Part shown: one piece after another, positions 4,736-47,114 of the stretch
Position numbering within the stretch: the first letter of the stretch is position 1
How the letters are laid out: each line of letters opens with the position of its first letter
Assembly (NCBI GenBank): GCA_964354805.1
Contig: CAYHBD010000009.1
Span: 1 to 64,000 of the forward strand
From: an uncultured archaeon
GTDB lineage: Archaea > Iainarchaeota > Iainarchaeia > Iainarchaeales > GCA-2688035
Direction of reading: 5' to 3'
Length of the DNA: 64,000 bases
Made by a program: the position numbers and the translations under genes
Notes under the pieces: generated by a model
Database searches by the model: none
What the model was told of the DNA's origin: nothing
Seen by the model: the letters and a program-made list of their open reading frames with translations, nothing else

Positions 4736-4870
4736 ATGAAAATGAAAATAATGAAAATTAAGGGAAAAAGAGAGCCAATAACAATGGCCGAGTGGAAGGA
4801 CATTAAAGATATTGTAAAAGCCCACTTGAAAGAATACAAAGACTTTTACGCAGAGCTTGCAGAATTGTGA
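4736..4870 (+). CDS. Small hypothetical protein, C-terminus resembles short addiction-module antitoxins
   Basis: …DIVKAHLKEYKDFYAELAEL; lies inside the tRNA-Tyr islet. Confidence 0.4.
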   Translation: MKMKIMKIKGKREPITMAEWKDIKDIVKAHLKEYKDFYAELAEL

Positions 4871-4912
4871 GGAGAGCAAGTAGTATTAAAAAGGCAAAAG
4901 GCACTGTGAAAA

Positions 4913-5407
4913 ATGATTAAAGAATATTTTAATTCAAGAATAAGCGCATTATTGGAACTTTTCATAAAGAAACCAATAATGGCAATAATTCCAATGCTCG
5001 TTTTTATTTTTTATTCGCTTCCAATCCTGAAACTATACTTTATCAACCAAAAAGCGTATTTCTTTTTGCTGTTTTGCAGCTATGCTTCAATACTGTCAAT
5101 AGTGGTTTTTTATTTTGCAAACAAAAAAGTCGGAAGGATTGAACAAAAATCAGTGTTCAAAGACAACAATTATCTGAAAGGGCTGGACCTTCCAAGATGG
5201 CTTTTTATAATCTGGGAAACCAGTTTGCTCGCATTATTCCTTTCAGCATTCTTTTCAATAATAGTTGACCTTTTCAGTGTCATATTCAGCCTGCTAAACC
5301 TTATACTCCCTGGAAACGAAAAAGCTGCTGTAACAAGCTCTCTTGGGCTGTCAATAGCAATACTGTTTTTGCTTTTCAACAACGCAATCAACAGGCAAAT
5401 GAGTTAA
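4913..5407 (+). CDS. Hypothetical membrane protein (AT-rich)
   Basis: 164 aa, about 4 hydrophobic segments, low GC. Confidence 0.65.
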   Translation: MIKEYFNSRISALLELFIKKPIMAIIPMLVFIFYSLPILKLYFINQKAYFFLLFCSYASILSIVVFYFANKKVGRIEQKSVFKDNNYLKGLDLPRWLFIIWETSLLALFLSAFFSIIVDLFSVIFSLLNLILPGNEKAAVTSSLGLSIAILFLLFNNAINRQMS

Positions 5408-11429: not shown

Positions 11430-12152
11430 TCATTTCAGCAGCAGAATTGCGGCAACCAGCAGCGGCTGGTGCAAAAAGTAAATAATAAGGCTGTGCCTGC
11501 CAAGGAAGCAAAAGAATTGCACAACATTGTTCTTCGAAAAATCCGGAACGCGGAATCTTCTTTTCGCGTTTGGGTAAAGCGCGTTTCCAGCGAAAACGCC
11601 AAGCAGCACTACACCAAACCAGGGCAGCAGTGGAAAGTAGTCAAAAGTGTAAAAGTTTCCGGGAGAGAATCCCAGCCACAAAAGCCATGCGAAAGGGAAA
11701 GAAAATTGCTGCAGCCACAATCCGAGTGCAATTAACGCAACGCCAGCGAAAAGGCTTGTTTTCTTTTTTCCAATGAAAGGGAAAGCGAGAATTATTGCTG
11801 CGCCAATAAGGTGCAGTACGCCAAATGCAATGAAACTGCTTGGAAACAGCAGCCAGGTGGCAGCGGTAATAACCAAACCAAGGCAGAAGATTTTCGCTCC
11901 CCTGAAAAGAAATTTTTTGAACAATTCAATTCCTTTTTTCTCGGATTTCACCCTGTTGTAGCTTATTGTGAGCGACAATCCCACAAGCAACAAGAACGCA
12001 ACAGCGGCAAACCTGCCCAGCACGAAAAACGCGCCGCTGTACAAAGGCAGCCTATAGCCAGCAAAGAAATTCAAATCAAACGCCGCATGGAAAGCAATCA
12101 TTGCAATTACGGCAATTCCCCTCAATGCGTCAATTTCAAAAAAGCGCTGCAT
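11430..12152 (-). CDS. DUF1624 / heparan-alpha-glucosaminide N-acetyltransferase-like membrane protein
   Basis: RFFEIDALRGIAVIAMIAFH, FGVLHLIG, DYFPLLPW, LGRHSLIIYFLHQP. Confidence 0.85.
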   Translation of the reverse strand: MQRFFEIDALRGIAVIAMIAFHAAFDLNFFAGYRLPLYSGAFFVLGRFAAVAFLLLVGLSLTISYNRVKSEKKGIELFKKFLFRGAKIFCLGLVITAATWLLFPSSFIAFGVLHLIGAAIILAFPFIGKKKTSLFAGVALIALGLWLQQFSFPFAWLLWLGFSPGNFYTFDYFPLLPWFGVVLLGVFAGNALYPNAKRRFRVPDFSKNNVVQFFCFLGRHSLIIYFLHQPLLVAAILLLK

Positions 12153-15114: not shown

Positions 15115-15627
15115 ATGGCAGTGTTTGCAATTGCCTTCATTTTTTCACTGATTTTTTACCTTGCCCTCACTTTTGGCAGCGGTTCCGTTTTTTTCTGGAG
15201 CGAATCAGAACTGATTGCAGCTGCTGCCTTTGCAGCAATTGCAGCAATCCTCACAAAAAAAATATTTAATGCACTTGGAGTAAAATCGAGCGCTGCTTTT
15301 CTGAACCCGGGGAGATGGCTGCTTTTTTTCATTTACTTAATCGGGCCATTCTTTTACAGCATGGCAAAATGCAACCTTGATGTTGCATACCGGGTGATAA
15401 CAGGCAAAATCAGACCTGGAATTGTAAAGATCAAGCCAGGACTGAAAACAGATTTCGGCGCAGCCATGCTTGCAAACAGCATTACTCTAACGCCGGGAAC
15501 TCTCACAGTGGACATTGACAAGGAAAAGAACTTTTACGTGCACTGGATTTTTGTGAAAAACAAGGATCCGAAGCCAGAAGAAATCTGCGGCAGTTTCCCA
15601 AAATGGGTCAGGAGGATTGCAGAATGA
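15115..15627 (+). CDS. mbhA: Mbh subunit A (MnhE-like)
   Basis: NLDVAYRV…PGIV…LANSITLTPGTLTVD. Confidence 0.88.
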   Translation: MAVFAIAFIFSLIFYLALTFGSGSVFFWSESELIAAAAFAAIAAILTKKIFNALGVKSSAAFLNPGRWLLFFIYLIGPFFYSMAKCNLDVAYRVITGKIRPGIVKIKPGLKTDFGAAMLANSITLTPGTLTVDIDKEKNFYVHWIFVKNKDPKPEEICGSFPKWVRRIAE

Positions 15628-15899
15628 TTCCAATTGAACCATTGCTGCTGTTGGTTGCCGCATGCTTGGGCGTATTAATGCTTGTTTGCCTTATAAGGGC
15701 ATTTTTGGGCCCGACAATTGCAGACAGGCTGGTTGCAGTTGATGCAATCAACACACAGATTGTGGTTGCATTGGTCGTGCTCGGGGCAGCCTTTAAGGAA
15801 ATCATTTATGTTGATGTTGCAATCATTTACGCAATGCTCGGCTTTGTGTCCACGCTTTACTTAGCCAAATACCTGGAGGGAAAAAAATGGAGTGGCTGA
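15624..15899 (+). CDS. mbhB: Mbh subunit B (MnhF-like)
   Basis: GPTIADRLVAVD…YVDVAIIYAMLGFVSTL. Confidence 0.88.
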   Translation: MIPIEPLLLLVAACLGVLMLVCLIRAFLGPTIADRLVAVDAINTQIVVALVVLGAAFKEIIYVDVAIIYAMLGFVSTLYLAKYLEGKKWSG

Positions 15900-16252
15900 T
15901 TTATGCTTTCATTGCAATCGGCCTGATATTCCAGGCGCTTGGCAGCATTTCACTGCACAGGTTCCCTGATGCCTACACAAGAATGCATGGAACAACAAAA
16001 TGCACTACTTTCGGCTCAATATTCATTTACCTTGCAGTCATCATTTACGGCGCTGCATTGTTTTTCTCAGGCAAATCAAACTATGCTGCGCTCAGCATCC
16101 ACACTGCAATCGCAATGTGCCTGATACTGTTAACCAGTCCTGTCAGTTCGCACGCTATTGCAAGGGCAGCGCACAGAAGCGGAATCATGCCTGCAAGGGC
16201 TGTTGTGGACAGGCTGAGGGAAGCGGAAAAAAGCAGGGGGCAAGGCAAATGA
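15887..16252 (+). CDS. mbhC: Mbh subunit C (MnhG-like)
   Basis: RFPDAYTRMHGTTK…LTSPVSSHAIARAA. Confidence 0.88.
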   Translation: MEWLIYAFIAIGLIFQALGSISLHRFPDAYTRMHGTTKCTTFGSIFIYLAVIIYGAALFFSGKSNYAALSIHTAIAMCLILLTSPVSSHAIARAAHRSGIMPARAVVDRLREAEKSRGQGK

Positions 16253-16299
16253 TTTTTGCAGAGAAAAATTTGCTGAAAGATTTGGGGGCATTTGAATGA
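16249..16299 (+). other. Bridging mini-ORF (16 aa) mbhC>mbhD
   Basis: MIFAEKNLLKDLGAFE*; ATGA overlap at both ends. Confidence 0.6.
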
Positions 16300-16556
16300 T
16301 TTTTGATATTATTCAGGCGCTTTTGCTTGCGGGCATTGTGTGCTCTGCATTCTTTGCATTGAAGGCAAAAGATTTGCTTGTGTCAATTATTCTTCTGGGA
16401 ACAATGAGCATGCTCATGGCAGGCGAATTTTATTTGCTGCAGGCGCCAGATGTCGCGATTGCAGAAGCGGCTGTAGGCGCTGGAATGACCACGGCGATTT
16501 ACATTATTGCACTAAACAAAACAAGCAGGTGGGAAGGCGATGCCAAAAATGATTAA
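16296..16556 (+). CDS. mbhD: Mbh subunit D (DUF4040)
   Basis: LQAPDVAIAEAAVGAG. Confidence 0.88.
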   Translation: MIFDIIQALLLAGIVCSAFFALKAKDLLVSIILLGTMSMLMAGEFYLLQAPDVAIAEAAVGAGMTTAIYIIALNKTSRWEGDAKND

Positions 16557-16593
16557 GATGCTGCACTGCTTGGGGGGAAGAGAACATGGGTAA
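16549..16593 (+). other. Bridging mini-ORF (14 aa) mbhD>mbhE
   Basis: MIKMLHCLGGREHG*; 8-nt ATGnnTAA overlaps at both ends. Confidence 0.6.
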
Positions 16594-16861
16594 TATTATC
16601 AGGGTTGCCGCACTGCTTGTGCTTTTTGCTTTTCTTTTGATTTCATTTTCAGGCATGAGGCCTTTTGGCGCGCCGGCTGATTCAAGAATGGATGACTACT
16701 TCATCCGGAACTGCGAAACTGAAACAGCCAACAACAATCTGGTGACAGCAGTAACATTTGATTACAGGGGCATTGACACTCTGGGCGAAGCAAGCGTTTT
16801 GTTTGCCGCAGCAACCGGAGTTTTCCTTGTGTTCGGGAGAGGTGTAAAGCGAAATGACTGA
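16586..16861 (+). CDS. mbhE: Mbh subunit E
   Basis: NNLVTAVTFDYRGIDTLGEA. Confidence 0.88.
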   Translation: MGNIIRVAALLVLFAFLLISFSGMRPFGAPADSRMDDYFIRNCETETANNNLVTAVTFDYRGIDTLGEASVLFAAATGVFLVFGRGVKRND

Positions 16862-17324
16862 TGAAATTGACAGCGGTCTTTCTGTAATAGTAAGAACAGT
16901 TGCTTGCATTCTCGCTATTCCTGTAACTATTTTCGGATTGTATGTTGTGATGCACGGGCATCTTACTCCAGGAGGGGGATTTGCAGGTGGAGCAGTAATG
17001 GCAACGCTTACTGCCTTGCTGCTGGTTGCATTTGGAAAAGACTTTGCAGGCAAGAGCCCAAAAAAGGAAATTGTGCTGGCATTTGAATGCATTGGGCTCA
17101 TGGCTTTTGCAATAATCGGATTTCTCGGCCTTGGCACAACATTCTTTGGGAATTTCCTTGCAAACAGCGGCTCAATTTTCGGGGCATCGATTCCATTCGG
17201 CCCAAACCCTGGTTACCTTGGCACCGGCGGAGTAACCCCGCTGATGAATCTGGCTGTCGGCCTGGAGGTTTTTGCTGCAACCTCGCTGGTTGTGCTGCTG
17301 ATTTACAAGGGCACTGGTGATTAG
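16854..17324 (+). CDS. mbhF: Mbh subunit F (MnhB-like)
   Basis: HGHLTPGGGFAGG…NLAVGLEV. Confidence 0.88.
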   Translation: MTDEIDSGLSVIVRTVACILAIPVTIFGLYVVMHGHLTPGGGFAGGAVMATLTALLLVAFGKDFAGKSPKKEIVLAFECIGLMAFAIIGFLGLGTTFFGNFLANSGSIFGASIPFGPNPGYLGTGGVTPLMNLAVGLEVFAATSLVVLLIYKGTGD

Positions 17325-17326
17325 AA

Positions 17327-17374
17327 ATGAGTCTGGAATTGCACTTTGCGGACAACAGGGGGAATAGAAAATGA
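17327..17374 (+). other. Bridging mini-ORF (15 aa) mbhF>mbhG
   Basis: MSLELHFADNRGNRK*; GGTGA RBS, starts 2 nt after the mbhF stop, ATGA overlap with mbhG. Confidence 0.6.
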
Positions 17375-17709
17375 TTGACATTACGTTTCTCGCTGTCCTG
17401 ATATTGCTGTTGCTCGGGCTTAGTTGCATAGTGCTCAAAAGAAACCTGCTGAAAATTGTCATGGGCATAAATGTGATAGGGAGCGCTGCAAACCTTTTCC
17501 TTGTTGCACTTGGATACAGAGCTGGAGGAGTTGCGCCAATTTTCACTGACACGCCGGGAAATGTAATGGTTCTGGCAACGCCCCAGGCGCTTACACTGAC
17601 ATCCATTGTCATAAACCTTGCAGTCACTGCCCTCATGCTTTCTTTTTGCATTATGATTTACAGGCACTATGGCTCGCTTGACCCAAAGAAAAGGAGGCTT
17701 TCAGGATGA
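17371..17709 (+). CDS. mbhG: Mbh subunit G (MnhC-like)
   Basis: NLLKIVMG…NLFLV…PQALTLTSIVI. Confidence 0.88.
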   Translation: MIDITFLAVLILLLLGLSCIVLKRNLLKIVMGINVIGSAANLFLVALGYRAGGVAPIFTDTPGNVMVLATPQALTLTSIVINLAVTALMLSFCIMIYRHYGSLDPKKRRLSG

Positions 17710-19244
17710 GCTTTCTTCTGCAGCACGCAGTAGTGCTTGCAATAGCAGTTCCACTTTTTGCTGCATTTGCAACAACACTGATCAGCAAAGCAGGCGGCAG
17801 GGTGAGAAACGCCTGGGCAATTATCGCTTTGCTGTTCACAGAATTGCTTGTTGTCATGCTTGCAGCAGATGTTTTTGCCGGGAACACGCATGTTTACACC
17901 GTAGGCGCAATAGTGCCAAGCCTCACCTCTCCAGAGGGTTTCCCAATCAGGATTATTCTGGTTGCTGATGCAATGTCTGCATTGGTTTCCTGCATGGCTG
18001 TAACAATAGCACTGCTTGCAGCAGTCTACAGTTGGAAGGGCATCCAAGAAGCGCAGGGCGTGGACAAATTTTACTCTCTGCTGCTTTTGCTTACAGCAGC
18101 AATGCTAGGCCTTAGCTTCACCGGAGACATTTTCACAATGTTTGTTTTCCTCGAAATTTCTTCCATTGCCTCGGCAGGCCTGATTTCTTTCTTTAGCAAG
18201 GGCGAAAGCTTTGAAGCGGCATTCAAGTACATGATTCTTTCCGCAACAGCAGGCCTCTTCTTCCTTTTTGGCGTTGGCATATTTTACGCCCAATACGGCG
18301 CATTGAACATTGCGGCTATTGCAAGCGCTGTACAAGCGAATTTCTCTTCTTTGAATGCTGTTGCAATTGCACTTATTGCTGGTGCACTTTTGCTGAAGGG
18401 CGGCAGCTTTCCGGCGCACATGTGGAAGCCTGACGCATACCAGGAAGCGCCTGCGCAGGTTACATCAATGCTGCTTGCCTATGGCATGGTCTGCCTTTAC
18501 GCTCTTTTCAGGATTTGCTTCACGATTTTCGGCGCTACTGCAATGCATTCAGCGCTCGGCTGGGCAATAATAACTCTGTCAGCGCTGAGCATTTTTGTTG
18601 GCGTAACCATGGCGCTTGTGCAGAGCAACCTGAAAAGATTGATGGGCTATGCTGCAGTGGCTGAAGCAGGCTATGTAATGCTCGGATTTGGCTGCGCCCT
18701 TGTTGCAATGCCTGCGGCAAGCGGCTTTGCCCTCAGAGCGCTTTACGGCGGAATATTCCATTTGATGAATGATGCAATTGACTTGTCTTTGCTTTTTTTG
18801 GTTGTTGGCGCTATCTGCTTTGTGACAAAAAAAAGCGATTTGAATGAAATAAAAGGATTGGCGCACAGCTCAAAAGCGCTTGCGTTGTTTTTCTTAATCG
18901 GAACTCTTGCTGTTGCAGGAATGCCCCCGTTCAACGGCTTTGCAAGCAAGCTGCTTATCTTTGAATCCGTTTATTACTTCAATCCACTGCTTTCAATCAT
19001 TGGAATACTGGGCAGCGTAATTATGCTCGCGATTTTCATTAAAGTGTTTGCCTCGCTCTTCCTCGGAATCCCGTTCAAGGGCAAAGTAAGCGCTGTTCCA
19101 AAAAGCATGCTGGCTGTTTTTTGCGTTCTTGCATTTTTCATAATTTTACTCGGCTTGTTCCCGCAATTTGTAGTTGAATTGCTGATAAAGCCGGCTGCTT
19201 CTGCATTGGTTAATTCAAAAGCATACATCGGGGGAATATTATGA
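17706..19244 (+). CDS. mbhH: Mbh subunit H (MnhD/NuoM-like ion-translocating subunit)
   Basis: TGDIFTMFVFLEI, EAAFKY, KGGSFPAHMWKPDAY, GMPPFNGFASK. Confidence 0.9.
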   Translation: MSFLLQHAVVLAIAVPLFAAFATTLISKAGGRVRNAWAIIALLFTELLVVMLAADVFAGNTHVYTVGAIVPSLTSPEGFPIRIILVADAMSALVSCMAVTIALLAAVYSWKGIQEAQGVDKFYSLLLLLTAAMLGLSFTGDIFTMFVFLEISSIASAGLISFFSKGESFEAAFKYMILSATAGLFFLFGVGIFYAQYGALNIAAIASAVQANFSSLNAVAIALIAGALLLKGGSFPAHMWKPDAYQEAPAQVTSMLLAYGMVCLYALFRICFTIFGATAMHSALGWAIITLSALSIFVGVTMALVQSNLKRLMGYAAVAEAGYVMLGFGCALVAMPAASGFALRALYGGIFHLMNDAIDLSLLFLVVGAICFVTKKSDLNEIKGLAHSSKALALFFLIGTLAVAGMPPFNGFASKLLIFESVYYFNPLLSIIGILGSVIMLAIFIKVFASLFLGIPFKGKVSAVPKSMLAVFCVLAFFIILLGLFPQFVVELLIKPAASALVNSKAYIGGIL

Positions 19245-19585
19245 TAGACTTGGCGCTGAAAACAGCTGCAGGATACTGGGCACCGTTGGTGTGGCTGGCT
19301 GCATTCTTAATCGCGCTTGCAATAGCATTGATTATAAGAAGCAGGGGCAACAGCAGATTCAAGCAGGGCAAAGAGCAGGCAACACCGTTCTTCTCGGGAA
19401 ACAGGCCGCCCGAAGAAAACATTTCAGGAAACAATTTTTACTGGGGCTTTTTTTCCGCAACAGGCAAATACTATAAATGGCTCCTGAAATTGCACACTGG
19501 CATAGTGAACGACTATGTCTTCTGCCTTGTATTGCTGGTTATTTTTCTTTTGCTGGCGGCAGCGCTCGGAGGCGGCATGCCATGA
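19241..19585 (+). CDS. mbhI: Mbh subunit I
   Basis: GYWAPLVW…PFFSGN…WGF…HTGIVNDYV. Confidence 0.82.
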   Translation: MIDLALKTAAGYWAPLVWLAAFLIALAIALIIRSRGNSRFKQGKEQATPFFSGNRPPEENISGNNFYWGFFSATGKYYKWLLKLHTGIVNDYVFCLVLLVIFLLLAAALGGGMP

Positions 19586-19641
19586 GCCAGAATTGCAGGC
19601 GCGCTGAATCACAGTGCTTGGGGGAATGCTATGAGCCTTAA
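19582..19641 (+). other. Bridging mini-ORF (19 aa) mbhI>mbhJ
   Basis: MSQNCRRAESQCLGECYEP*; ATGA overlap upstream, 11-nt overlap downstream. Confidence 0.6.
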
Positions 19642-20059
19642 AACATTGAATCGTTCGCTCTGGGCTTTTCATTTCAACAGCGGAAGCTGCAACGGCTGCG
19701 ATATTGAGATTGTTGCTGCACTCACGCCGCGCTATGATATTGAGAGATTTGGAATGAAAGTGGTTGGAACCCCAAGGCATGCTGATGTGCTGCTGCTCAC
19801 CGGGCCTGTTACAAATGATATGGAGGAAAAATTGCGCAGGGTTTTTGAGCAGATTCCAGAGCCAAAGGCGGTGATGGTGATTGGAAACTGCGGCAGCACT
19901 GGCGGGGTTTTCTATGAATCGTACAACATTGCAGGGCCTGCAGATAAAATAATTCCTGTTGATGTTTTTGTTGCAGGCTGCCCTCCAAGACCAGAGGCAA
20001 TAATTGACGGAGTTGCCAAGCTGTGGGCAAAGCTTGAGAAGAAGGTGGACAAGAAATGA
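19631..20059 (+). CDS. mbhJ: Mbh small subunit J (NuoB-like Fe-S)
   Basis: GSCNGCDIE, PRHADVLL, GNCG, GCPPRPE. Confidence 0.92.
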   Translation: MSLKTLNRSLWAFHFNSGSCNGCDIEIVAALTPRYDIERFGMKVVGTPRHADVLLLTGPVTNDMEEKLRRVFEQIPEPKAVMVIGNCGSTGGVFYESYNIAGPADKIIPVDVFVAGCPPRPEAIIDGVAKLWAKLEKKVDKK

Positions 20060-20613
20060 ATGCGAAAGATGCGCTTGATTCATTCAAAAAGCAGTTCGGC
20101 AAAAAGCTCAGCGAAGCGAGGATTGAGAAATTCAAGAACAATGCAAAGAAAAGCAGGGTGGAAAGGATCTGGGTTTCAATTGAACGTGATTCGTTCAAGG
20201 AAGCAGTAAAATATTTGTGCACAATTCACCCAATGCCGCACTTTGCTGTCATTTCAGGCTATCAGATTGGAGATTTGATTGAATTAATTTACCATTTCAG
20301 CCTGAATTACGCAAGCAAACAAGGCGAGTTTTCCTTCAGCATTAAAACAACTCTGCCCAAGGCTGATGCAGTGCTGCCCACAATCACTGACCTCATTCCA
20401 GGCGCCCTGGTTTCAGAGAGGGAAGTGCAGGAAATGCTTGGAGTGAAAATTGAGGGCATTCCTGATTCAAGAAGGCTGTTTTTGCAGAAAGAGTTTCCAA
20501 AGGGCGTTTACCCCTGGAGAAGGGATGAAACAGGCCCTGAAAAAATGGTCAGGAACTTAAGCAAGCCAGCGGAAAAAGATGAAAATTTAAGCAAAGGTGA
20601 AAAGAGTGACTGA
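20056..20613 (+). CDS. mbhK: Mbh subunit K (NuoC-like)
   Basis: ELIYHF…LPTITDLIPGA..SERE..EMLG…RRLFL…YPWR. Confidence 0.88.
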   Translation: MNAKDALDSFKKQFGKKLSEARIEKFKNNAKKSRVERIWVSIERDSFKEAVKYLCTIHPMPHFAVISGYQIGDLIELIYHFSLNYASKQGEFSFSIKTTLPKADAVLPTITDLIPGALVSEREVQEMLGVKIEGIPDSRRLFLQKEFPKGVYPWRRDETGPEKMVRNLSKPAEKDENLSKGEKSD

Positions 20614-20659
20614 AAAGGCAACAGGATTCTTAAATCAAGGCAAAGGTGGCAAGAAATGA
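20606..20659 (+). other. Bridging mini-ORF (17 aa) mbhK>mbhL
   Basis: GTG-start MTEKATGFLNQGKGGKK*; AGGTGA RBS, 8-nt overlap upstream, ATGA overlap downstream. Confidence 0.6.
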
Positions 20660-21894
20660 GCGAGAAAAAAGATAGCAACTCTTTCAGCTTGTCTGTTGGG
20701 CCTGTCCACCCGGCGCTTAAGGAGCCAGTGAGGCTGAACTGCGAGATTGAAGGAGAAAGGGTTGCAAGTGTTGACTTTGAATTGAGCCAGGTGCACAGGG
20801 GCATTGAATGGATGGGCACAAGAAGGAACCCGGTGCAGATAATCACGCTTTCTGAAAGAGTTTGCGGAATCTGCAACATCTGCCACACGCTTTGCTTTTG
20901 TATGTCTGTTGAAAGCATTGCAGGCATTGAAGTGCCTGCAAGAGCGCATTACATCAGGACAATTGTTGCAGAACTGGAGAGAATCCACAGCCATATTCTA
21001 TGGACTGGAATTGCGGCGCACGAGCTTGGCTTTGACAGCGTTATGCACTACACCTGGAGGCTGCGAGAAAATGTGCTTGACACAATCGAATATCTGACAG
21101 GCAACAGGATAACAAAGGCAATGATAACAATAGGCGGAGTGAGAAGAGACATCAGCGAAAAGCAGTATCCGAAAATCAGGGAGTCAATGAATTACTATAA
21201 AGCCAATTTCAATAAATTAAAGGACATTTTCCTGAAAGATCCGATCATTAAATCGAGGACAAGGGATGCCGGAATTTTAACCAGAACAGATGCCCTGCGC
21301 TTGTGCGCTGTCGGTCCTACTGCCAGGGCATCAGGCATCAGAAAGGATGTAAGGCAGGACGAGCCATACGCCGCTTACGCTGAACTTGATGTGAAAGCAA
21401 TAACGCCAAGGGATTTAACAGGAGAAATTAGGGGCGATGTTTTCGACAGGATTATCGTAAGGCTGCTTGAATTGCAGCAATCAATTGAAATAATTGAAAA
21501 GTGCATGCAGCAGATGCCAAAAGGAAAAATAGTGCACGAAGAGAAAATCCCAAAATTGCTTGCTGATTTGCGCAACCTGAGCGGCGAGGGCATTGGAAGG
21601 CACGAGGCTCCAAGGGGAGAGGTATTCCATTACGTTAAATTCACCGGGCAAGAAGCACCCTACGCTTGGAAAATCAGGGCTCCAACTTACAACAATCTCC
21701 TCAGCTGGATTCCGATGCTTCTTGGAGCGCAGATTGCAGACATCCCCATTATTGCAGCATCAACAGACCCCTGTCTGAGCTGCGCTAATAGGGCTGTTAT
21801 TGCAGATATGAGCGAAAGAATAGTGCTTGACAATGATGCACTGCACAAATTGTCTGTTGAAAAAACAATTGAATTGCGGAGGCAATTGAAATGA
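20656..21894 (+). CDS. mbhL: Group 4 [NiFe]-hydrogenase large subunit MbhL
   Basis: GPVHPALKEP, ERVCGICNICH (L1), EAPRGE, DPCLSCANR (L2) plus a cleavable C-terminal extension. Confidence 0.93.
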   Translation: MSEKKDSNSFSLSVGPVHPALKEPVRLNCEIEGERVASVDFELSQVHRGIEWMGTRRNPVQIITLSERVCGICNICHTLCFCMSVESIAGIEVPARAHYIRTIVAELERIHSHILWTGIAAHELGFDSVMHYTWRLRENVLDTIEYLTGNRITKAMITIGGVRRDISEKQYPKIRESMNYYKANFNKLKDIFLKDPIIKSRTRDAGILTRTDALRLCAVGPTARASGIRKDVRQDEPYAAYAELDVKAITPRDLTGEIRGDVFDRIIVRLLELQQSIEIIEKCMQQMPKGKIVHEEKIPKLLADLRNLSGEGIGRHEAPRGEVFHYVKFTGQEAPYAWKIRAPTYNNLLSWIPMLLGAQIADIPIIAASTDPCLSCANRAVIADMSERIVLDNDALHKLSVEKTIELRRQLK

Positions 21895-21941
21895 CTGAAA
21901 TGCCGCTTGCAGAAAGCTTGAATTCAGGCAGAGGCGATTGA
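21891..21941 (+). other. Bridging mini-ORF (16 aa) mbhL>mbhM
   Basis: MTEMPLAESLNSGRGD*; ATGA overlap upstream, TGA-A-ATG downstream; ATTGAAATGACTGAA duplicated. Confidence 0.6.
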
Positions 21942-21942
21942 A

Positions 21943-22947
21943 ATGACTGAACTGTTGTATGCAATGCTGCTTGTGCCAGTTGTTGCAGTGCTTGGCATAA
22001 TTCTCGGGCTTTTCTTCAACGGGATTGACAGGGTGCTTGCCGCAAGAATGCAGGCAAGGATCGGCCCTCCTGTAACGCAGCCTTTCAGGGATATAAGGAA
22101 ATTGCTTTTGAAGGAAACAATTGTCCCAATGCACGCAGTGAAATGGCTTTTCAATGCAATGCCATTGCTTTCCCTGGCAACAGCAATAACAATCCTATTT
22201 TTCATTCCGCTTGCAGGCTTTCCTCCACTGTTGCAGGGCAGCGGAGACCTTATTCTGCTGCTGTATCTGCTGTTATTCCCTTCACTTGCTTTGGTGATTG
22301 CCGGCTTTTCTTCCGCTTCCCCCTATGCAACTGTCGGAGCGCAGAGGGAAATGGTTACAATGCTTTCATTTGAGCTGCCGCTTGCAATCGCCGCTGTTTC
22401 GGTTGCATGGCTGCTTTCAACGGCATTGTGCGGGCAGGCTGTTTTTTCACTTGCAGTAATTGCAGCCAACCCTGTCTGGGGCTTGGTTGGACCGTTCGGT
22501 TTTGTCGGATTGGCAATTCTTTTCATTGCCATGCTGGTTGTAATGCCTGGCGAGCTTGGTTCAATTCCGTTTGATACAGCTGAAGCTGAAACAGAGATTG
22601 CCGGCGGAGTGCTGGTTGAATACAGTGGAAGAAACATTGCATTATTCTATCTGGCTAATGCTGTCAAAACAATTGCCTTTGCCTCAATCACAATAGCATT
22701 GTTTTTGCCTTATGGAATTGCTGCATGGCTTGGCTTAGGCGGAATTGCCGCTGCTTTTGCCAATGCGCTTTTCTTTTTGCTCAAATTGTTTGCCGTTGTT
22801 TTTGTCGGCAGGATTTTCCTGAGAGTTGCGATTCCGAGGCTGAGGATAACGCAGGTTGTCAAGGCATTCTGGGGCTATGCAACCTTTGCTGCCCTGCTTG
22901 CCCTGATGCTGATAATAATTGACGTTGCTTTGCGGGGAGTGATTTGA
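21943..22947 (+). CDS. mbhM: Mbh subunit M (NuoH-like)
   Basis: DRVLAARMQARIGPP..QPF.DIRKLL.KE, PFDTAEAETEIAGGVLVEYSG, PRLRI. Confidence 0.92.
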   Translation: MTELLYAMLLVPVVAVLGIILGLFFNGIDRVLAARMQARIGPPVTQPFRDIRKLLLKETIVPMHAVKWLFNAMPLLSLATAITILFFIPLAGFPPLLQGSGDLILLLYLLLFPSLALVIAGFSSASPYATVGAQREMVTMLSFELPLAIAAVSVAWLLSTALCGQAVFSLAVIAANPVWGLVGPFGFVGLAILFIAMLVVMPGELGSIPFDTAEAETEIAGGVLVEYSGRNIALFYLANAVKTIAFASITIALFLPYGIAAWLGLGGIAAAFANALFFLLKLFAVVFVGRIFLRVAIPRLRITQVVKAFWGYATFAALLALMLIIIDVALRGVI

Positions 22948-23322
22948 ATGGCAATGAGAGCTGAGCTGCTGAAACAGTTGTTCAAACGCCCCTTCACTAA
23001 CCTCTTTCCCGCAAAGCGCATTCCAAAGAGCGTAACGGATTTTCTGCTCAAAGTGAAGAAAGGCGAAGCAAAACCAAACAAGCCAATTGCTGTTCCGCCT
23101 GGATTCAGGGGAAAAATCGCTTACAGCAGGGAGAAATGCATTGGATGCCAGCTCTGCGTGAAAGTCTGCCCTGCAGCGGCAGTAGAATTCCTGCCGGCAG
23201 AGAAAAAAATCCGCTACCATTTGTTCAGGTGCACTTTCTGCGGATACTGCGTTGAAGTGTGCCCTGTGAAAGCGCTTCTCTTTACGGATGAGTTTTTGCT
23301 CGCGGATTATAAGAAGGATTAG
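22948..23322 (+). CDS. mbhN: Mbh subunit N (2x[4Fe-4S], NuoI-like)
   Basis: CIGCQLCVKVCP and CTFCGYCVEVCP. Confidence 0.92.
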   Translation: MAMRAELLKQLFKRPFTNLFPAKRIPKSVTDFLLKVKKGEAKPNKPIAVPPGFRGKIAYSREKCIGCQLCVKVCPAAAVEFLPAEKKIRYHLFRCTFCGYCVEVCPVKALLFTDEFLLADYKKD

Positions 23323-46206: not shown

Positions 46207-46620
46207 ATGCGTTTAAACAGCGATGAAATTTTTTATTTGAATGAATTCAGCTCAGCCAGCGGCGCGAGCGCAAGGGACTGCGTTATTGAAGAAAACGTTG
46301 TATCCTTCTTGGTGAAAAAAGACGCCATGGGAAAAGCGATCGGAAGGAATGCTGAAACAGTGAAAAAGCTGAGGCAAAAGCTGAGGCGAAATATTGAAAT
46401 TTTTGAATACGACGATGACGTGCAGGGATTCATTAAAAAAGCCTTGTACAGCATTAAAATTGATGCAATAAACATTGCTGAAAGGAACGGGAAAAAACAG
46501 GCAATATTGCGGCTTGATTCGGAGAATAAAAGAAAATTGCTGAATAATTTATCAAGGGTTAAAAGAATTAAAGCCTTTGCAAAAAGAGATTATAATATAG
46601 ACGACGTGAGAACAAGGTGA
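46207..46620 (+). CDS. nusA: Archaeal NusA
   Basis: ARDCV…MGKAIGRN KH domain; canonical operon position. Confidence 0.9.
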   Translation: MRLNSDEIFYLNEFSSASGASARDCVIEENVVSFLVKKDAMGKAIGRNAETVKKLRQKLRRNIEIFEYDDDVQGFIKKALYSIKIDAINIAERNGKKQAILRLDSENKRKLLNNLSRVKRIKAFAKRDYNIDDVRTR

Positions 46621-46679
46621 AAAAGAGGAAAAATTAAAATTGAAAAAAAATTTGAAAATTAAAAAAAATGTAAGGTGAA

Positions 46680-47114
46680 ATGTCGATGGCTAAAGGAGAG
46701 TTTGCTGCAGCAAAGCTTGAAAAGGACAGGCAGCACTGGCGCTGGAAGAAGCCAAGCTACAAAAAAAGGGTAGCAGGCTTTAGGGACAAATTCGACCTGC
46801 TAGAGGGATCACCGCAGGCAAGAGGCATAGTTCTGGAAAAAAGGGGGGTTACGGCAAAACAGCCGAACTCAGGCATAAGAAAATGCGTCAGAGTGCAATT
46901 AATCAAGAACGGCAGAGAGCTGACAGCGCTTGCACCATACGACGGCGCAATAAAATTCATTGAAGAGCACGATGAAGTAATAGTTGAAGGAATAGGCGGG
47001 GCAAAAGGCGGTCCAAAAGGCGACCTGTGGGGAGTGAAGTACAGGGTAACCCACGTAAACGGCCAGTGCCTCGAAATGCTCAGAACAGGCAGAAAAGAGA
47101 AAGTGAAGAGGTAA
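46680..47114 (+). CDS. rps12: 30S ribosomal protein S12 (uS12)
   Basis: [20 protein letters not shown]. Confidence 0.96.

What the first reader, a model, noticed from the sequence alone, without database searches (positions are those of the whole stretch)
16249..21945. Every gap in the mbh operon is bridged by a doubly coupled mini-ORF (possible ribosome relay)
Seen: of 13 junctions, 7 overlap or abut directly. The other 6 have 29-48 nt gaps, and each is spanned by a 14-19 codon ORF. Each ORF starts on or next to the upstream stop and ends on or next to the downstream start: 16249-16299 (ATGA/ATGA), 16549-16593 (8-nt/8-nt), 17327-17374 (+2/ATGA), 19582-19641 (ATGA/11-nt), 20606-20659 (8-nt/ATGA), 21891-21941 (ATGA/TGA-A-ATG). 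Several begin like the downstream protein (MIF/MIF, MTE/MTE, MTEK/MSEK, MS/MS) and have G-rich SD-like sequence near their ends. Known: 4- and 8-nt overlaps mediate termination-reinitiation coupling in prokaryotes. Inference: gene junctions were duplicated, and only inserts that keep ribosomes handed on were retained; alternatively the spacers tune subunit stoichiometry. The peptides share no sequence, so translation rather than product is probably what matters.
Basis: partly seen in the sequence, partly recalled or inferred. Interest (0 to 1): 0.85.

Follow-up and report, generated by a model that had tools for sequence, protein, structure and literature searches.

The report
Duplicated gene junctions forming relay mini-ORFs
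The six short gaps in this archaeal hydrogenase operon are recent tandem copies of stop/start gene junctions that once overlapped. Each copy leaves a tiny reading frame that probably passes ribosomes from one gene to the next, an arrangement already known in outline from mycobacterial MIRU repeats and synthetic two-cistron designs.

Summary
All six 29-48 nt gaps of the 14-gene mbhA-N operon are spanned by a 14-19 codon ORF that starts at the upstream stop and ends at the downstream start.

**Origin.** The spacers are diverged tandem duplications of ancestral overlapping junctions, with periods of 44-52 nt.
- Same-family relatives and a ~90%-identical contig have plain ATGA-type overlaps at these junctions, and spacers at other junctions.
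- Contigs of close relatives skip four of the six spacers.
- The spacer ends match their own flanks (permutation p=5e-5).
- Two mini-ORF C-termini equal the ancestral C-terminus of the upstream protein.

**By construction.** The bridging ORF arises largely automatically. Simulated duplications with period 2 mod 3 bridge in 98% of cases.

**Selection.** Only 54-64% of visible events should bridge at birth, but 18 of 19-20 independent events do (p about 0.0001-0.01). A filter for ribosome hand-over is therefore likely but not proven. Spacer sequence drifts almost neutrally and the peptides are not conserved.

**Excluded.** The spacers are not a mobile element, not a structured RNA and not a frameshift site.

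The closest known systems are MIRUs and bicistronic designs. This scan has already noted the same phenomenon in other genomes. I rate it a new variant of a known kind, of moderate interest.

The parts
15115..23322 (+). 14-gene mbhA-N (Mrp-Mbh type, membrane-bound [NiFe] hydrogenase) operon. Gene coordinates: A 15115-15627, B 15624-15899, C 15887-16252, D 16296-16556, E 16586-16861, F 16854-17324, G 17371-17709, H 17706-19244, I 19241-19585, J 19631-20059, K 20056-20613, L 20656-21894, M 21943-22947, N 22948-23322.
   Evidence: Pfam hits for A-H and J. Precomputed Pfam hits on the ~90%-identical orthologues for K (Complex1_30kDa), L (NiFeSe_Hases), M (NADHdh) and N (Fer4). Colinear A-N order in about 50 metagenomic operons. 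Every gene has an SD 4-9 nt upstream of its start.
16249..16299 (+). C/D mini-ORF of 16 codons. ATGA overlap with the mbhC stop and ATGA overlap with the mbhD start. Spacer 16253-16295, duplication period 47.
   Evidence: The spacer is absent in L110, which has a plain ATGA overlap with an identical upstream flank. It is present in L109 and L111 with 2-3 substitutions and the frame kept open.
16540..16593 (+). It ends on a TAA 8 nt inside mbhE. Spacer 16557-16585, period 46.
   Evidence: L110 has the unduplicated ATGGGTAA overlap. The L109 mini-ORF ends ...RWEEHG*, which is the C-terminus of MbhD in L110.
17327..17374 (+). F/G mini-ORF of 15 codons. It starts 2 nt after the mbhF TAG and has an ATGA overlap with the mbhG start. 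Spacer 17325-17370, period 44.
   Evidence: L110 shares the spacer with ATGA at both ends; in the window a GAG-to-TAG change shortened mbhF by two codons. L109 and contigs of runs X1 and X2 lack the spacer (skip 50).
19582..19641 (+). I/J mini-ORF of 19 codons. ATGA overlap with the mbhI stop; it ends 11 nt inside mbhJ. Spacer 19586-19630, period 49.
   Evidence: L029 and L110 carry the same event with period 44 and ATGA at both ends, and their peptide differs. An X4 contig skips exactly 49 nt, with the 4 nt ATGA ambiguous at the joint.
20606..20659 (+). K/L mini-ORF of 17 codons. GTG start with 8 nt overlap on mbhK, and ATGA overlap with the mbhL start. Spacer 20614-20655, period 50.
   Evidence: L110 shares it with 5 of 42 nt changed and the frame open. 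X1 and X2 contigs skip it and then read ...GGTGGCAAGAAATGA, so the mini-ORF end GGKK* is the ancestral MbhK C-terminus.
21891..21941 (+). L/M mini-ORF of 16 codons. ATGA overlap with the mbhL stop; its TGA lies 1 nt before the mbhM ATG. Spacer 21895-21942, period 52. This is the only event whose period does not put the frame onto the copy of the upstream stop.
   Evidence: The 19-nt junction repeat matches at 18 of 19 positions, with junction-repeat score p=1e-4. The spacer is absent in L110 and in X1, X2 and X4 contigs.

Best explanation
Each of the six spacers is a diverged tandem duplication, with a period of 44-52 nt, of an ancestral overlapping stop/start junction of the mbh operon.

After such a duplication the upstream gene still ends at junction copy 1 and the downstream gene still starts at junction copy 2. 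In between lies a copy of the downstream gene's first codons fused to a copy of the upstream gene's last codons. That piece is the mini-ORF.
- It keeps the original Shine-Dalgarno sequence (inside the upstream gene's tail) and the original start codon on the upstream stop.
- It carries the second SD near its 3' end.
- It stops on or beside the real downstream start.

Inferred, not shown: ribosomes finishing the upstream gene re-initiate on the mini-ORF, translate its 14-19 codons, terminate at the next start and re-initiate again. Coupling would then survive a gap that would otherwise abolish it. The peptide itself is irrelevant.

The architecture arises mostly by construction. Events that break the hand-over appear to be under-represented among the survivors.
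For: **Ancestral state**
- In same-family genomes the same junctions are -4 or similar overlaps.
- In about 80 mbh-type operons, 701 of 838 junctions overlap or abut, and true 25-60 nt gaps occur almost only in this family.

**Recent and polymorphic**
- L110 (about 90% nt identity) lacks the C/D, D/E and L/M spacers, shares F/G, I/J and K/L, and has its own H/I and M/N spacers.
- Contigs of close relatives skip F/G, I/J (exactly 49 nt at an ATGA microhomology), K/L and L/M.

**Duplication signature**
- The 16 nt before the two starts match within a junction better than between junctions (10.2 vs 7.7 matches, permutation p=5e-5). The 9 nt after the starts do the same (p=2e-4).
- Genome-wide, 13 of 120 short gaps show junction repeats at p<0.01, against 1.2 expected.
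- Mini-ORF C-termini equal ancestral upstream-protein C-termini at D/E and K/L.

**Initiation signals**
- The 16S rRNA ends in GGAUCACCUCCU. All six mini-ORFs and all 14 genes have an SD 4-9 nt upstream of the start.

**Independent replicates**
- 18 independent spacers of 28 nt or more in relatives' mbh operons are bridged in the same way, against one that is not.
- Simulated fresh duplications give 54-64% bridged among visible events. Observed 18 of 19-20 gives p=1e-4 to 1e-2.

**Literature**
- Termination-reinitiation falls to near zero at gaps of about 20-23 nt in Haloferax volcanii and E. coli (PMC10666635), so a 29-48 nt gap needs either a relay or independent initiation.
Against: - Translation and hand-over are not shown by any data here. 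No RNA run was listed and there is no ribosome profiling.
- Much of the pattern is automatic. Period 2 mod 3 bridges in 98% of simulations, and microhomology across ATGA junctions favours that period 1.7-2-fold.
- An internal control is weak. The off frames of the spacers also hold few stops (8 in 326 codons), so zero stops in the mini-ORF frame has only p=0.02.
- Spacer sequence diverges about as fast as local third codon positions (27/200 vs 79/490).
- Each downstream gene has its own good SD in the spacer, so it could initiate independently.
- Junction duplications elsewhere in this genome are mostly not bridged.
Confidence: 0.7

Rival explanations
1. Neutral scars. The spacers are junction duplications, but the mini-ORFs have no role. 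The downstream genes initiate on their own through the SD in the spacer, and bridging is only the by-product of how the duplication arises.
For: - Period 2 mod 3 bridges automatically (98%), and microhomology bias favours that period.
- Spacers drift at about the local third-position rate, and the I/J spacer changed frame by a 5-nt indel.
- Every downstream gene has its own SD.
- The genome holds 74 tandem repeats of period 30-70. Of these, 46 lie at gene boundaries or between genes, as expected if only harmless ones survive.
Against: - 18 of 19-20 independent events are bridged against 54-64% expected at birth (p=1e-4 to 1e-2).
- 16 of 17 visible events have the frame-closing period (p=0.01 even with a 2:1 mutational bias).
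- The mini-ORF start codon and SD are kept in all mbh events, whereas they are often lost in duplications elsewhere in the genome.
Confidence: 0.24
2. Mobile intercistronic element, like MIRU or the start-site cassette noted elsewhere in DPANN archaea. On this reading a small repeat inserts at start codons with a target-site duplication and brings its own coupled ORF.
For: The short junction repeats (15-19 nt) flanking an interior of about 30 nt look superficially like target-site duplications. MIRUs insert at start codons with -4 coupling (PMC12548453).
Against: - Spacer interiors share no family consensus. All-against-all scores are barely above shuffles (mean 12.5 vs 10.5), and the one shared 11-mer contains a 10-mer (GGAATTGCAC) that occurs 12 times in the genome.
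- The interiors align to the local downstream 5' end and the local upstream 3' end.
- Mini-ORF C-termini are the ancestral local protein C-termini.
- There is no hairpin: fold z-scores run from -1.5 to +1.6.
Confidence: 0.03
3. The mini-ORFs are N-terminal extensions of the downstream subunits, reached by programmed frameshifting as proposed elsewhere in this genome for the his genes, or they encode functional micro-peptides.
For: The mbhJ and mbhL frames are open across the whole spacer. Earlier notes of this scan report frameshift-like starts in this genome.
Against: - In-frame stops lie directly before the mbhD and mbhG starts.
- Orthologues without spacers begin at the junction-2 start.
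- The peptides are not conserved. At I/J the window and L029 peptides differ after two residues. Across the shared spacers, substitutions run 7 nonsynonymous to 3 synonymous.
Confidence: 0.02
4. Chance: short open frames that happen to link the ends of AT-rich spacers.
For: Single junctions bridge in 16-70% of spacer shuffles. 26% of other short gaps in the genome are bridged under a permissive rule.
Against: - Six of six in the window and 18 of 19-20 across relatives.
- The start and stop positions are explained by the duplicated junction.
- Product of shuffle probabilities over 16 events: 2.7e-6.
Confidence: 0.01

Closest known systems
Translational coupling by termination-reinitiation at ATGA/TGATG overlaps (Huber et al. 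2019, PMC6728339; Huber et al. 2023, PMC10666635)
   Same: Both ends of every mini-ORF have the -4, -8 or 0 to +2 nt stop/start geometry that supports coupling. The genes encode subunits of one heteromeric membrane complex, the class in which overlaps are enriched.
   Different: Here two coupling steps in series, through a throw-away ORF, replace one direct overlap. The published work shows that gaps of 20 nt or more abolish coupling, but it does not describe relays made by junction duplication.
MIRU, mycobacterial interspersed repetitive units (Supply et al. 1997, as summarised in PMC12548453)
   Same: A short intercistronic insert at a start codon, whose small ORF is coupled at -4 nt to the downstream gene, so the insertion barely disturbs expression. 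Presence is variable between strains.
   Different: MIRUs are a dispersed, apparently mobile repeat family with a shared sequence. The spacers here share no sequence with each other and are copies of their own flanks. They are local tandem duplications in an archaeon.
Synthetic bicistronic design / two-cistron expression cassettes (cited in PMC12548453, its ref. 78)
   Same: A leader ORF with its own SD, a second SD embedded in its 3' end, and a stop overlapping the start of the gene of interest.
   Different: These arose naturally by mutation, sit between genes of an operon rather than at its 5' end, and are also coupled upstream.
Earlier findings of this scan on other genomes (e1-4227188, e1-5263056, e1-2149962)
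   Same: Tandem duplication of overlapping junctions gives chained mini-ORFs, with a bias towards frame-closing lengths that is partly mutational.
   Different: This is a different organism (a DPANN archaeon of the Diapherotrites/Iainarchaeota group) and a different operon. Here presence/absence alleles among ~90%-identical relatives and ancestral C-termini preserved in the mini-ORFs document the origin directly.

Membership tests
Mbh-type 14-gene membrane-bound hydrogenase operon (mbhA-N) | Mrp-like membrane genes A-I followed by NuoB/C/D/H/I-like J-N, in this order on one strand | tested here: met
   Pfam hits MNHE, MrpF, MnhG, MbhD, MbhE, MnhB, Oxidored_q2, Proton_antipo_M and Oxidored_q6. 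K-N families are on record for the ~90%-identical orthologues in L110. Colinear with about 50 metagenomic operons.
Mbh-type 14-gene membrane-bound hydrogenase operon (mbhA-N) | [NiFe]-binding cysteine motifs in the large subunit MbhL | not tested
   Not examined; it does not bear on the finding.
Tandem duplication of a gene junction | An allele without the insert in close relatives, differing by exactly one repeat period | tested here: met
   L110 lacks C/D, D/E and L/M. L109 lacks F/G. Contigs skip F/G, I/J (exactly 49 nt, with ATGA ambiguous), K/L and L/M.
Tandem duplication of a gene junction | The insert consists of a copy of the downstream 5' end followed by a copy of the upstream 3' end | tested here: met
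   Junction-specific similarity p=5e-5 upstream and p=2e-4 downstream. Half-spacer alignments are significant at several events. Ancestral MbhD and MbhK C-termini are preserved in the mini-ORFs. For window F/G the sequence similarity alone is weak.
Termination-reinitiation coupling | Stop and next start overlap or lie within a few nt, with an SD upstream | tested here: met
   Distance from mini-ORF start to upstream stop is -3, -16/-7, +3, -3, -7 and -3. Distance from mini-ORF stop to downstream start is +3, +7, +3, +10, +3 and -2. An SD lies 5-9 nt before each mini-ORF start and 6-9 nt before each downstream start.
Termination-reinitiation coupling | Downstream translation depends on upstream translation | not testable with these tools
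   Needs a reporter assay or ribosome profiling. No RNA run was listed.
MIRU-like mobile intercistronic repeat | Dispersed family of copies that share sequence | tested here: not met
   No shared interior consensus among 18 spacers. No structure.
MIRU-like mobile intercistronic repeat | Internal small ORF coupled at -4 to the downstream gene | tested here: met
   ATGA at the downstream end in 3 of the 6 window spacers and in most relatives' spacers.
Bicistronic-design architecture | Leader ORF with its own SD, a second SD inside its 3' end, and a stop overlapping the main start | tested here: met
   SD table; geometry.

The most novel reading that the evidence does not exclude
Junction duplication may be a recurrent, selectable way by which these small archaea insert ~45-nt translated relay or delay modules between subunit genes of membrane complexes. 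The modules would keep coupling while changing the timing or ratio of subunit synthesis, for example to pace co-translational membrane insertion.

That would explain two things. The mbh operon is a hot spot in several genomes of the family: 6 of 13 junctions here, 5 of 13 in L110 and 5 of 13 in L025, against roughly 5% of coupled junctions elsewhere in this genome. And the survivors are almost always bridged.
Probability: 0.2. Interest if true: 0.7.

Novelty: new variant of a known kind. Interest (0 to 1): 0.5.

Why it matters
The case shows, with presence/absence alleles among near-identical uncultured archaea, how intergenic spacers in tightly coupled operons can be born. A single local duplication leaves both genes intact and automatically creates a small translated bridge.

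If the bridge is needed, it is a natural counterpart of the engineered bicistronic design. It would also be an archaeal, non-mobile counterpart of MIRUs, and a ready-made test bed for the distance rule of termination-reinitiation.

It is also a caution for annotation. Such mini-ORFs are scars of junctions, not micro-protein genes. One gene caller already called a 29-residue gene at the mbhF/G junction of L109, although that one turned out to be the displaced C-terminal end of a broken mbhF.

Tried and rejected
- **RNA evidence.** No RNA holder was listed for the operon, so expression and transcript structure could not be examined.
- **RNA structure.** Folding the six junction regions gave no stability beyond shuffles, with z-scores from -1.5 to +1.6.
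- **Mobile element.** All-against-all comparison of spacer interiors and word counts gave nothing. TTGCA-type words are simply common in this operon (7.6 per kb).
- **Purifying selection on spacer sequence.** A first comparison with genome-wide fourfold sites suggested constraint (7/88 vs 23%). It disappeared when local third-position divergence was used (27/200 vs 79/490), so I do not claim it.
- **Ungapped proxy reconstruction and neutral-decay simulation.** This has low power because most spacers are near saturation in the middle.
- **Gaps in distant operons.** The apparent 25-40 nt I/J gaps in distant operons were artefacts of my start choice. The true starts lie 10-15 nt after the stop.
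- **TRF.** It does not detect the mbh spacers, which are too diverged. It only shows the genome-wide background.
- **Frameshift or N-terminal extension.** Rejected because of in-frame stops before the mbhD and mbhG starts.
- **Not used.** No structure prediction or complex prediction was run, because nothing in the claim rests on protein folds.

Full report
**What is there**

Window 15115-23322 (+) holds a 14-gene mbhA-N operon.
- Pfam assigns A-H and J to the Mrp/Mbh membrane families and NuoB.
- K-N are Complex1_30kDa, NiFeSe_Hases, NADHdh and Fer4 in the ~90%-identical orthologues.
- The genome is 1.38 Mb in 49 contigs and 88% complete.
- Sources name members of the >=90% MbhD cluster 'Candidatus Diapherotrites archaeon', which fits a DPANN archaeon.

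Seven junctions overlap or abut (-4, -13, -8, -4, -4, -4, 0). Six have gaps of 43, 29, 46, 45, 42 and 48 nt.

One correction. The D/E frame is already open from an ATG at 16540. That ATG has an AGGTG Shine-Dalgarno (SD) sequence 8 nt upstream, whereas 16549 has none.

**More than chance**

- Shuffling each spacer with the flanks held fixed bridges in 16-70% of trials per junction. The product for the six is 6e-3.
- With my own rough gene calls for the genome, 30 of 114 other 25-60 nt same-strand gaps are bridged under a very permissive rule. Six of six then has a probability of about 3e-4.
- These nulls take the start at the upstream stop and the stop at the downstream start as given. Those two features are what the origin explains.

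**Origin: tandem duplication of overlapping junctions**

1. Ancestral state.
   - In same-family genomes (68-78% MbhL identity) the six junctions are nearly all 4-nt ATGA overlaps, or 10-17 nt overlaps at D/E and I/J.
   - Across about 80 mbh-type operons from metagenomes, 701 of 838 junctions overlap or abut. Real 25-60 nt gaps are almost confined to this family.
2. Unduplicated alleles in close relatives.
   - L110 is about 90% identical in nucleotides, with 23% divergence at fourfold sites.
   - It has plain overlaps at C/D, D/E and L/M, with flanks matching the window.
   - It shares the F/G, I/J and K/L spacers and has two spacers of its own at H/I and M/N.
   - L109 and L111 share C/D and D/E. 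L109 lacks F/G.
3. Laid contigs of four metagenome runs.
   - They skip F/G (50 nt), I/J (exactly 49 nt, with ATGA ambiguous at the joint), K/L (57 nt) and L/M (56 or 62 nt).
4. Flank-specific similarity.
   - The 16 nt before the mini-ORF start and before the downstream start match better within a junction than across junctions (10.2 vs 7.7 matches, permutation p=5e-5).
   - The 9 nt after the two starts do the same (p=2e-4). This controls for the shared SD consensus.
5. The mini-ORFs end with ancestral upstream-protein C-termini.
   - The D/E mini-ORF of L109 ends ...RWEEHG*, which is the MbhD end in L110.
   - The K/L mini-ORF ends GGKK*, which is the MbhK end in the contigs that lack the spacer.

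Each spacer is therefore a copy of the downstream 5' end plus a copy of the upstream 3' end. The periods are 47, 46, 44, 49 (44 in L029 and L110), 50 and 52 nt.

**Not a mobile element, structured RNA or frameshift site**

- Spacer interiors share no consensus.
- The TTGCA-type words they contain are common in this operon.
- None of the six regions folds better than shuffles.
- In-frame stops lie directly before the mbhD and mbhG starts, and orthologues without spacers begin at the same start.

**How it probably works**

- The 16S rRNA ends in GGAUCACCUCCU.
- All 14 genes and all six mini-ORFs have a complementary SD 4-9 nt upstream of the start.
- The mini-ORF inherits the old SD and start on the upstream stop, and it holds the new SD for the real gene near its end. 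This is the layout of the synthetic bicistronic design and of MIRU inserts (PMC12548453).
- Experiments in Haloferax volcanii and E. coli show that termination-reinitiation drops to near zero at gaps of about 20-23 nt (PMC10666635).
- A bare 29-48 nt gap would therefore uncouple the genes. A translated bridge with two short-range hand-overs would not.
- This step is inference. No expression or ribosome data exist for this organism.

**By construction or selected?**

Replicates:
- Every spacer of 28 nt or more in relatives' mbh operons is a junction duplication with a bridging ORF.
  - L025 (5): A/B, C/D, G/H, J/K and L/M.
  - L110 (2): H/I and M/N.
  - L023 (1): H/I.
  - L024 (2): B/C and M/N.
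  - L027 (1): I/J.
  - A distant lineage (1): F/G in L076 and L071.
- With the window's six this makes 18 independent bridged events.
- One unclear exception is L027 K/L. One short-gap case, A/B in L022 and L024, has lost the first ATG.

Baseline:
- Simulated fresh duplications of 101 real ATGA junctions bridge in 98% of cases when the period is 2 mod 3.
- They bridge in 25% of cases at 1 mod 3 and 8% at 0 mod 3. In the last class, 59% are hidden as in-frame N-terminal extensions.
- Microhomologies across such junctions favour 2 mod 3 by 1.7-2-fold.
- Together these give 54-64% of visible events bridged at birth. Observed 18 of 19-20 gives p=1e-4 to 1e-2.
- 16 of 17 visible events have the frame-closing period, p=1e-4 to 0.01 depending on the mutational bias assumed.

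Against strong constraint:
- The off frames of the spacers also hold few stops, so zero stops in the mini-ORF frame has only p=0.02.
- Spacers diverge about as fast as local third codon positions.
- The I/J spacer changed length by 5 nt and changed frame between the window and L029.
- Substitutions in the shared mini-ORFs are 7 nonsynonymous to 3 synonymous.

My reading is that the sequence and the peptide are free. Only the frame geometry is plausibly filtered.

**Genomic background**

- TRF finds 74 tandem repeats of period 30-70 in this 1.38 Mb genome. Those inside genes are nearly all multiples of three. 46 lie at gene boundaries or between genes.
- 13 of 120 short gaps carry a junction repeat at p<0.01, against 1.2 expected.
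- Short local duplications are therefore frequent in this lineage and survive where they do no harm.
- The mbh operon is enriched: 6 of 13 junctions against roughly 12 of 239 elsewhere. This is a rough estimate (Fisher p=7e-5).
- Outside mbh the duplicated junctions have mostly lost or never had the first start codon.

**Comparison with what is known**

The geometry is that of termination-reinitiation coupling (PMC6728339, PMC10666635). The closest described natural case is MIRU, but the defining MIRU feature, a dispersed repeat family, was tested and not met.

I found no paper describing relay ORFs made by junction duplication in the two literature searches I ran. This scan has already reported the same phenomenon in several other genomes, including the point that much of the length bias is mutational.

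**Verdict**

The duplication origin is close to certain (about 0.95). That the mini-ORFs are translated is very likely, given their signals. That the relay is needed and selected is about even odds.

It is a new variant of a known kind, and of moderate interest.

Noticed in passing
G000:C3:11381-11525 (- strand), outside the window: 3.8 tandem copies of a 37-nt unit lie between two same-strand genes. Most copies carry an SD (AAGGTGA) and an ATG, giving a ladder of start regions with short ORFs. It looks like a younger, multi-copy version of the same kind of event.
   Followed up: partly
G000:C47:10829-10869 and 11738-11776 (+), outside the window: Two further junction duplications with bridging ORFs lie in the genome's second complex-I-like / hydrogenase-like gene cluster, which holds MbhL-like hits at C47:12589-13797. 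The second membrane energy complex is therefore affected as well.
   Followed up: no
L109:897-1354: In this metagenome contig of a close relative, mbhF is cut short by a TAA and its true C-terminal end continues in another frame. The gene caller reported that part as a separate 29-residue gene. This is either a frameshift or an assembly error. The contig has the unduplicated ATGA junction at F/G.
   Followed up: partly
L022:6175-6232, L024:6111-6168, L025:6051-6150: In three relatives MbhL carries a 19-33 residue Lys/Glu-rich N-terminal extension that starts on the ATGA overlap with mbhK. This could be the hidden in-frame class of junction duplication, or a separate extension. It was not resolved.
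   Followed up: no
G000, whole genome: The genome holds 74 tandem repeats of period 30-70 nt in 1.38 Mb. The 28 inside genes have periods that are almost all multiples of three. Short local duplications seem unusually common in this lineage.
   Followed up: partly
window 17322-17324: mbhF ends on a TAG where L110 has GAG followed by AAA TGA. A nonsense change has shortened MbhF by two residues and moved its stop 5 nt upstream of the mini-ORF start. This is why this junction shows a +2 gap instead of ATGA.
   Followed up: yes
window 4870-4913 and 46620-46680 (+): Two other short same-strand gaps in the window. The first is bridged by a GTG-started ORF (start on the upstream stop, stop 7 nt into the downstream gene). 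The second has a weak junction repeat (p=0.02). Neither was studied further.
   Followed up: no
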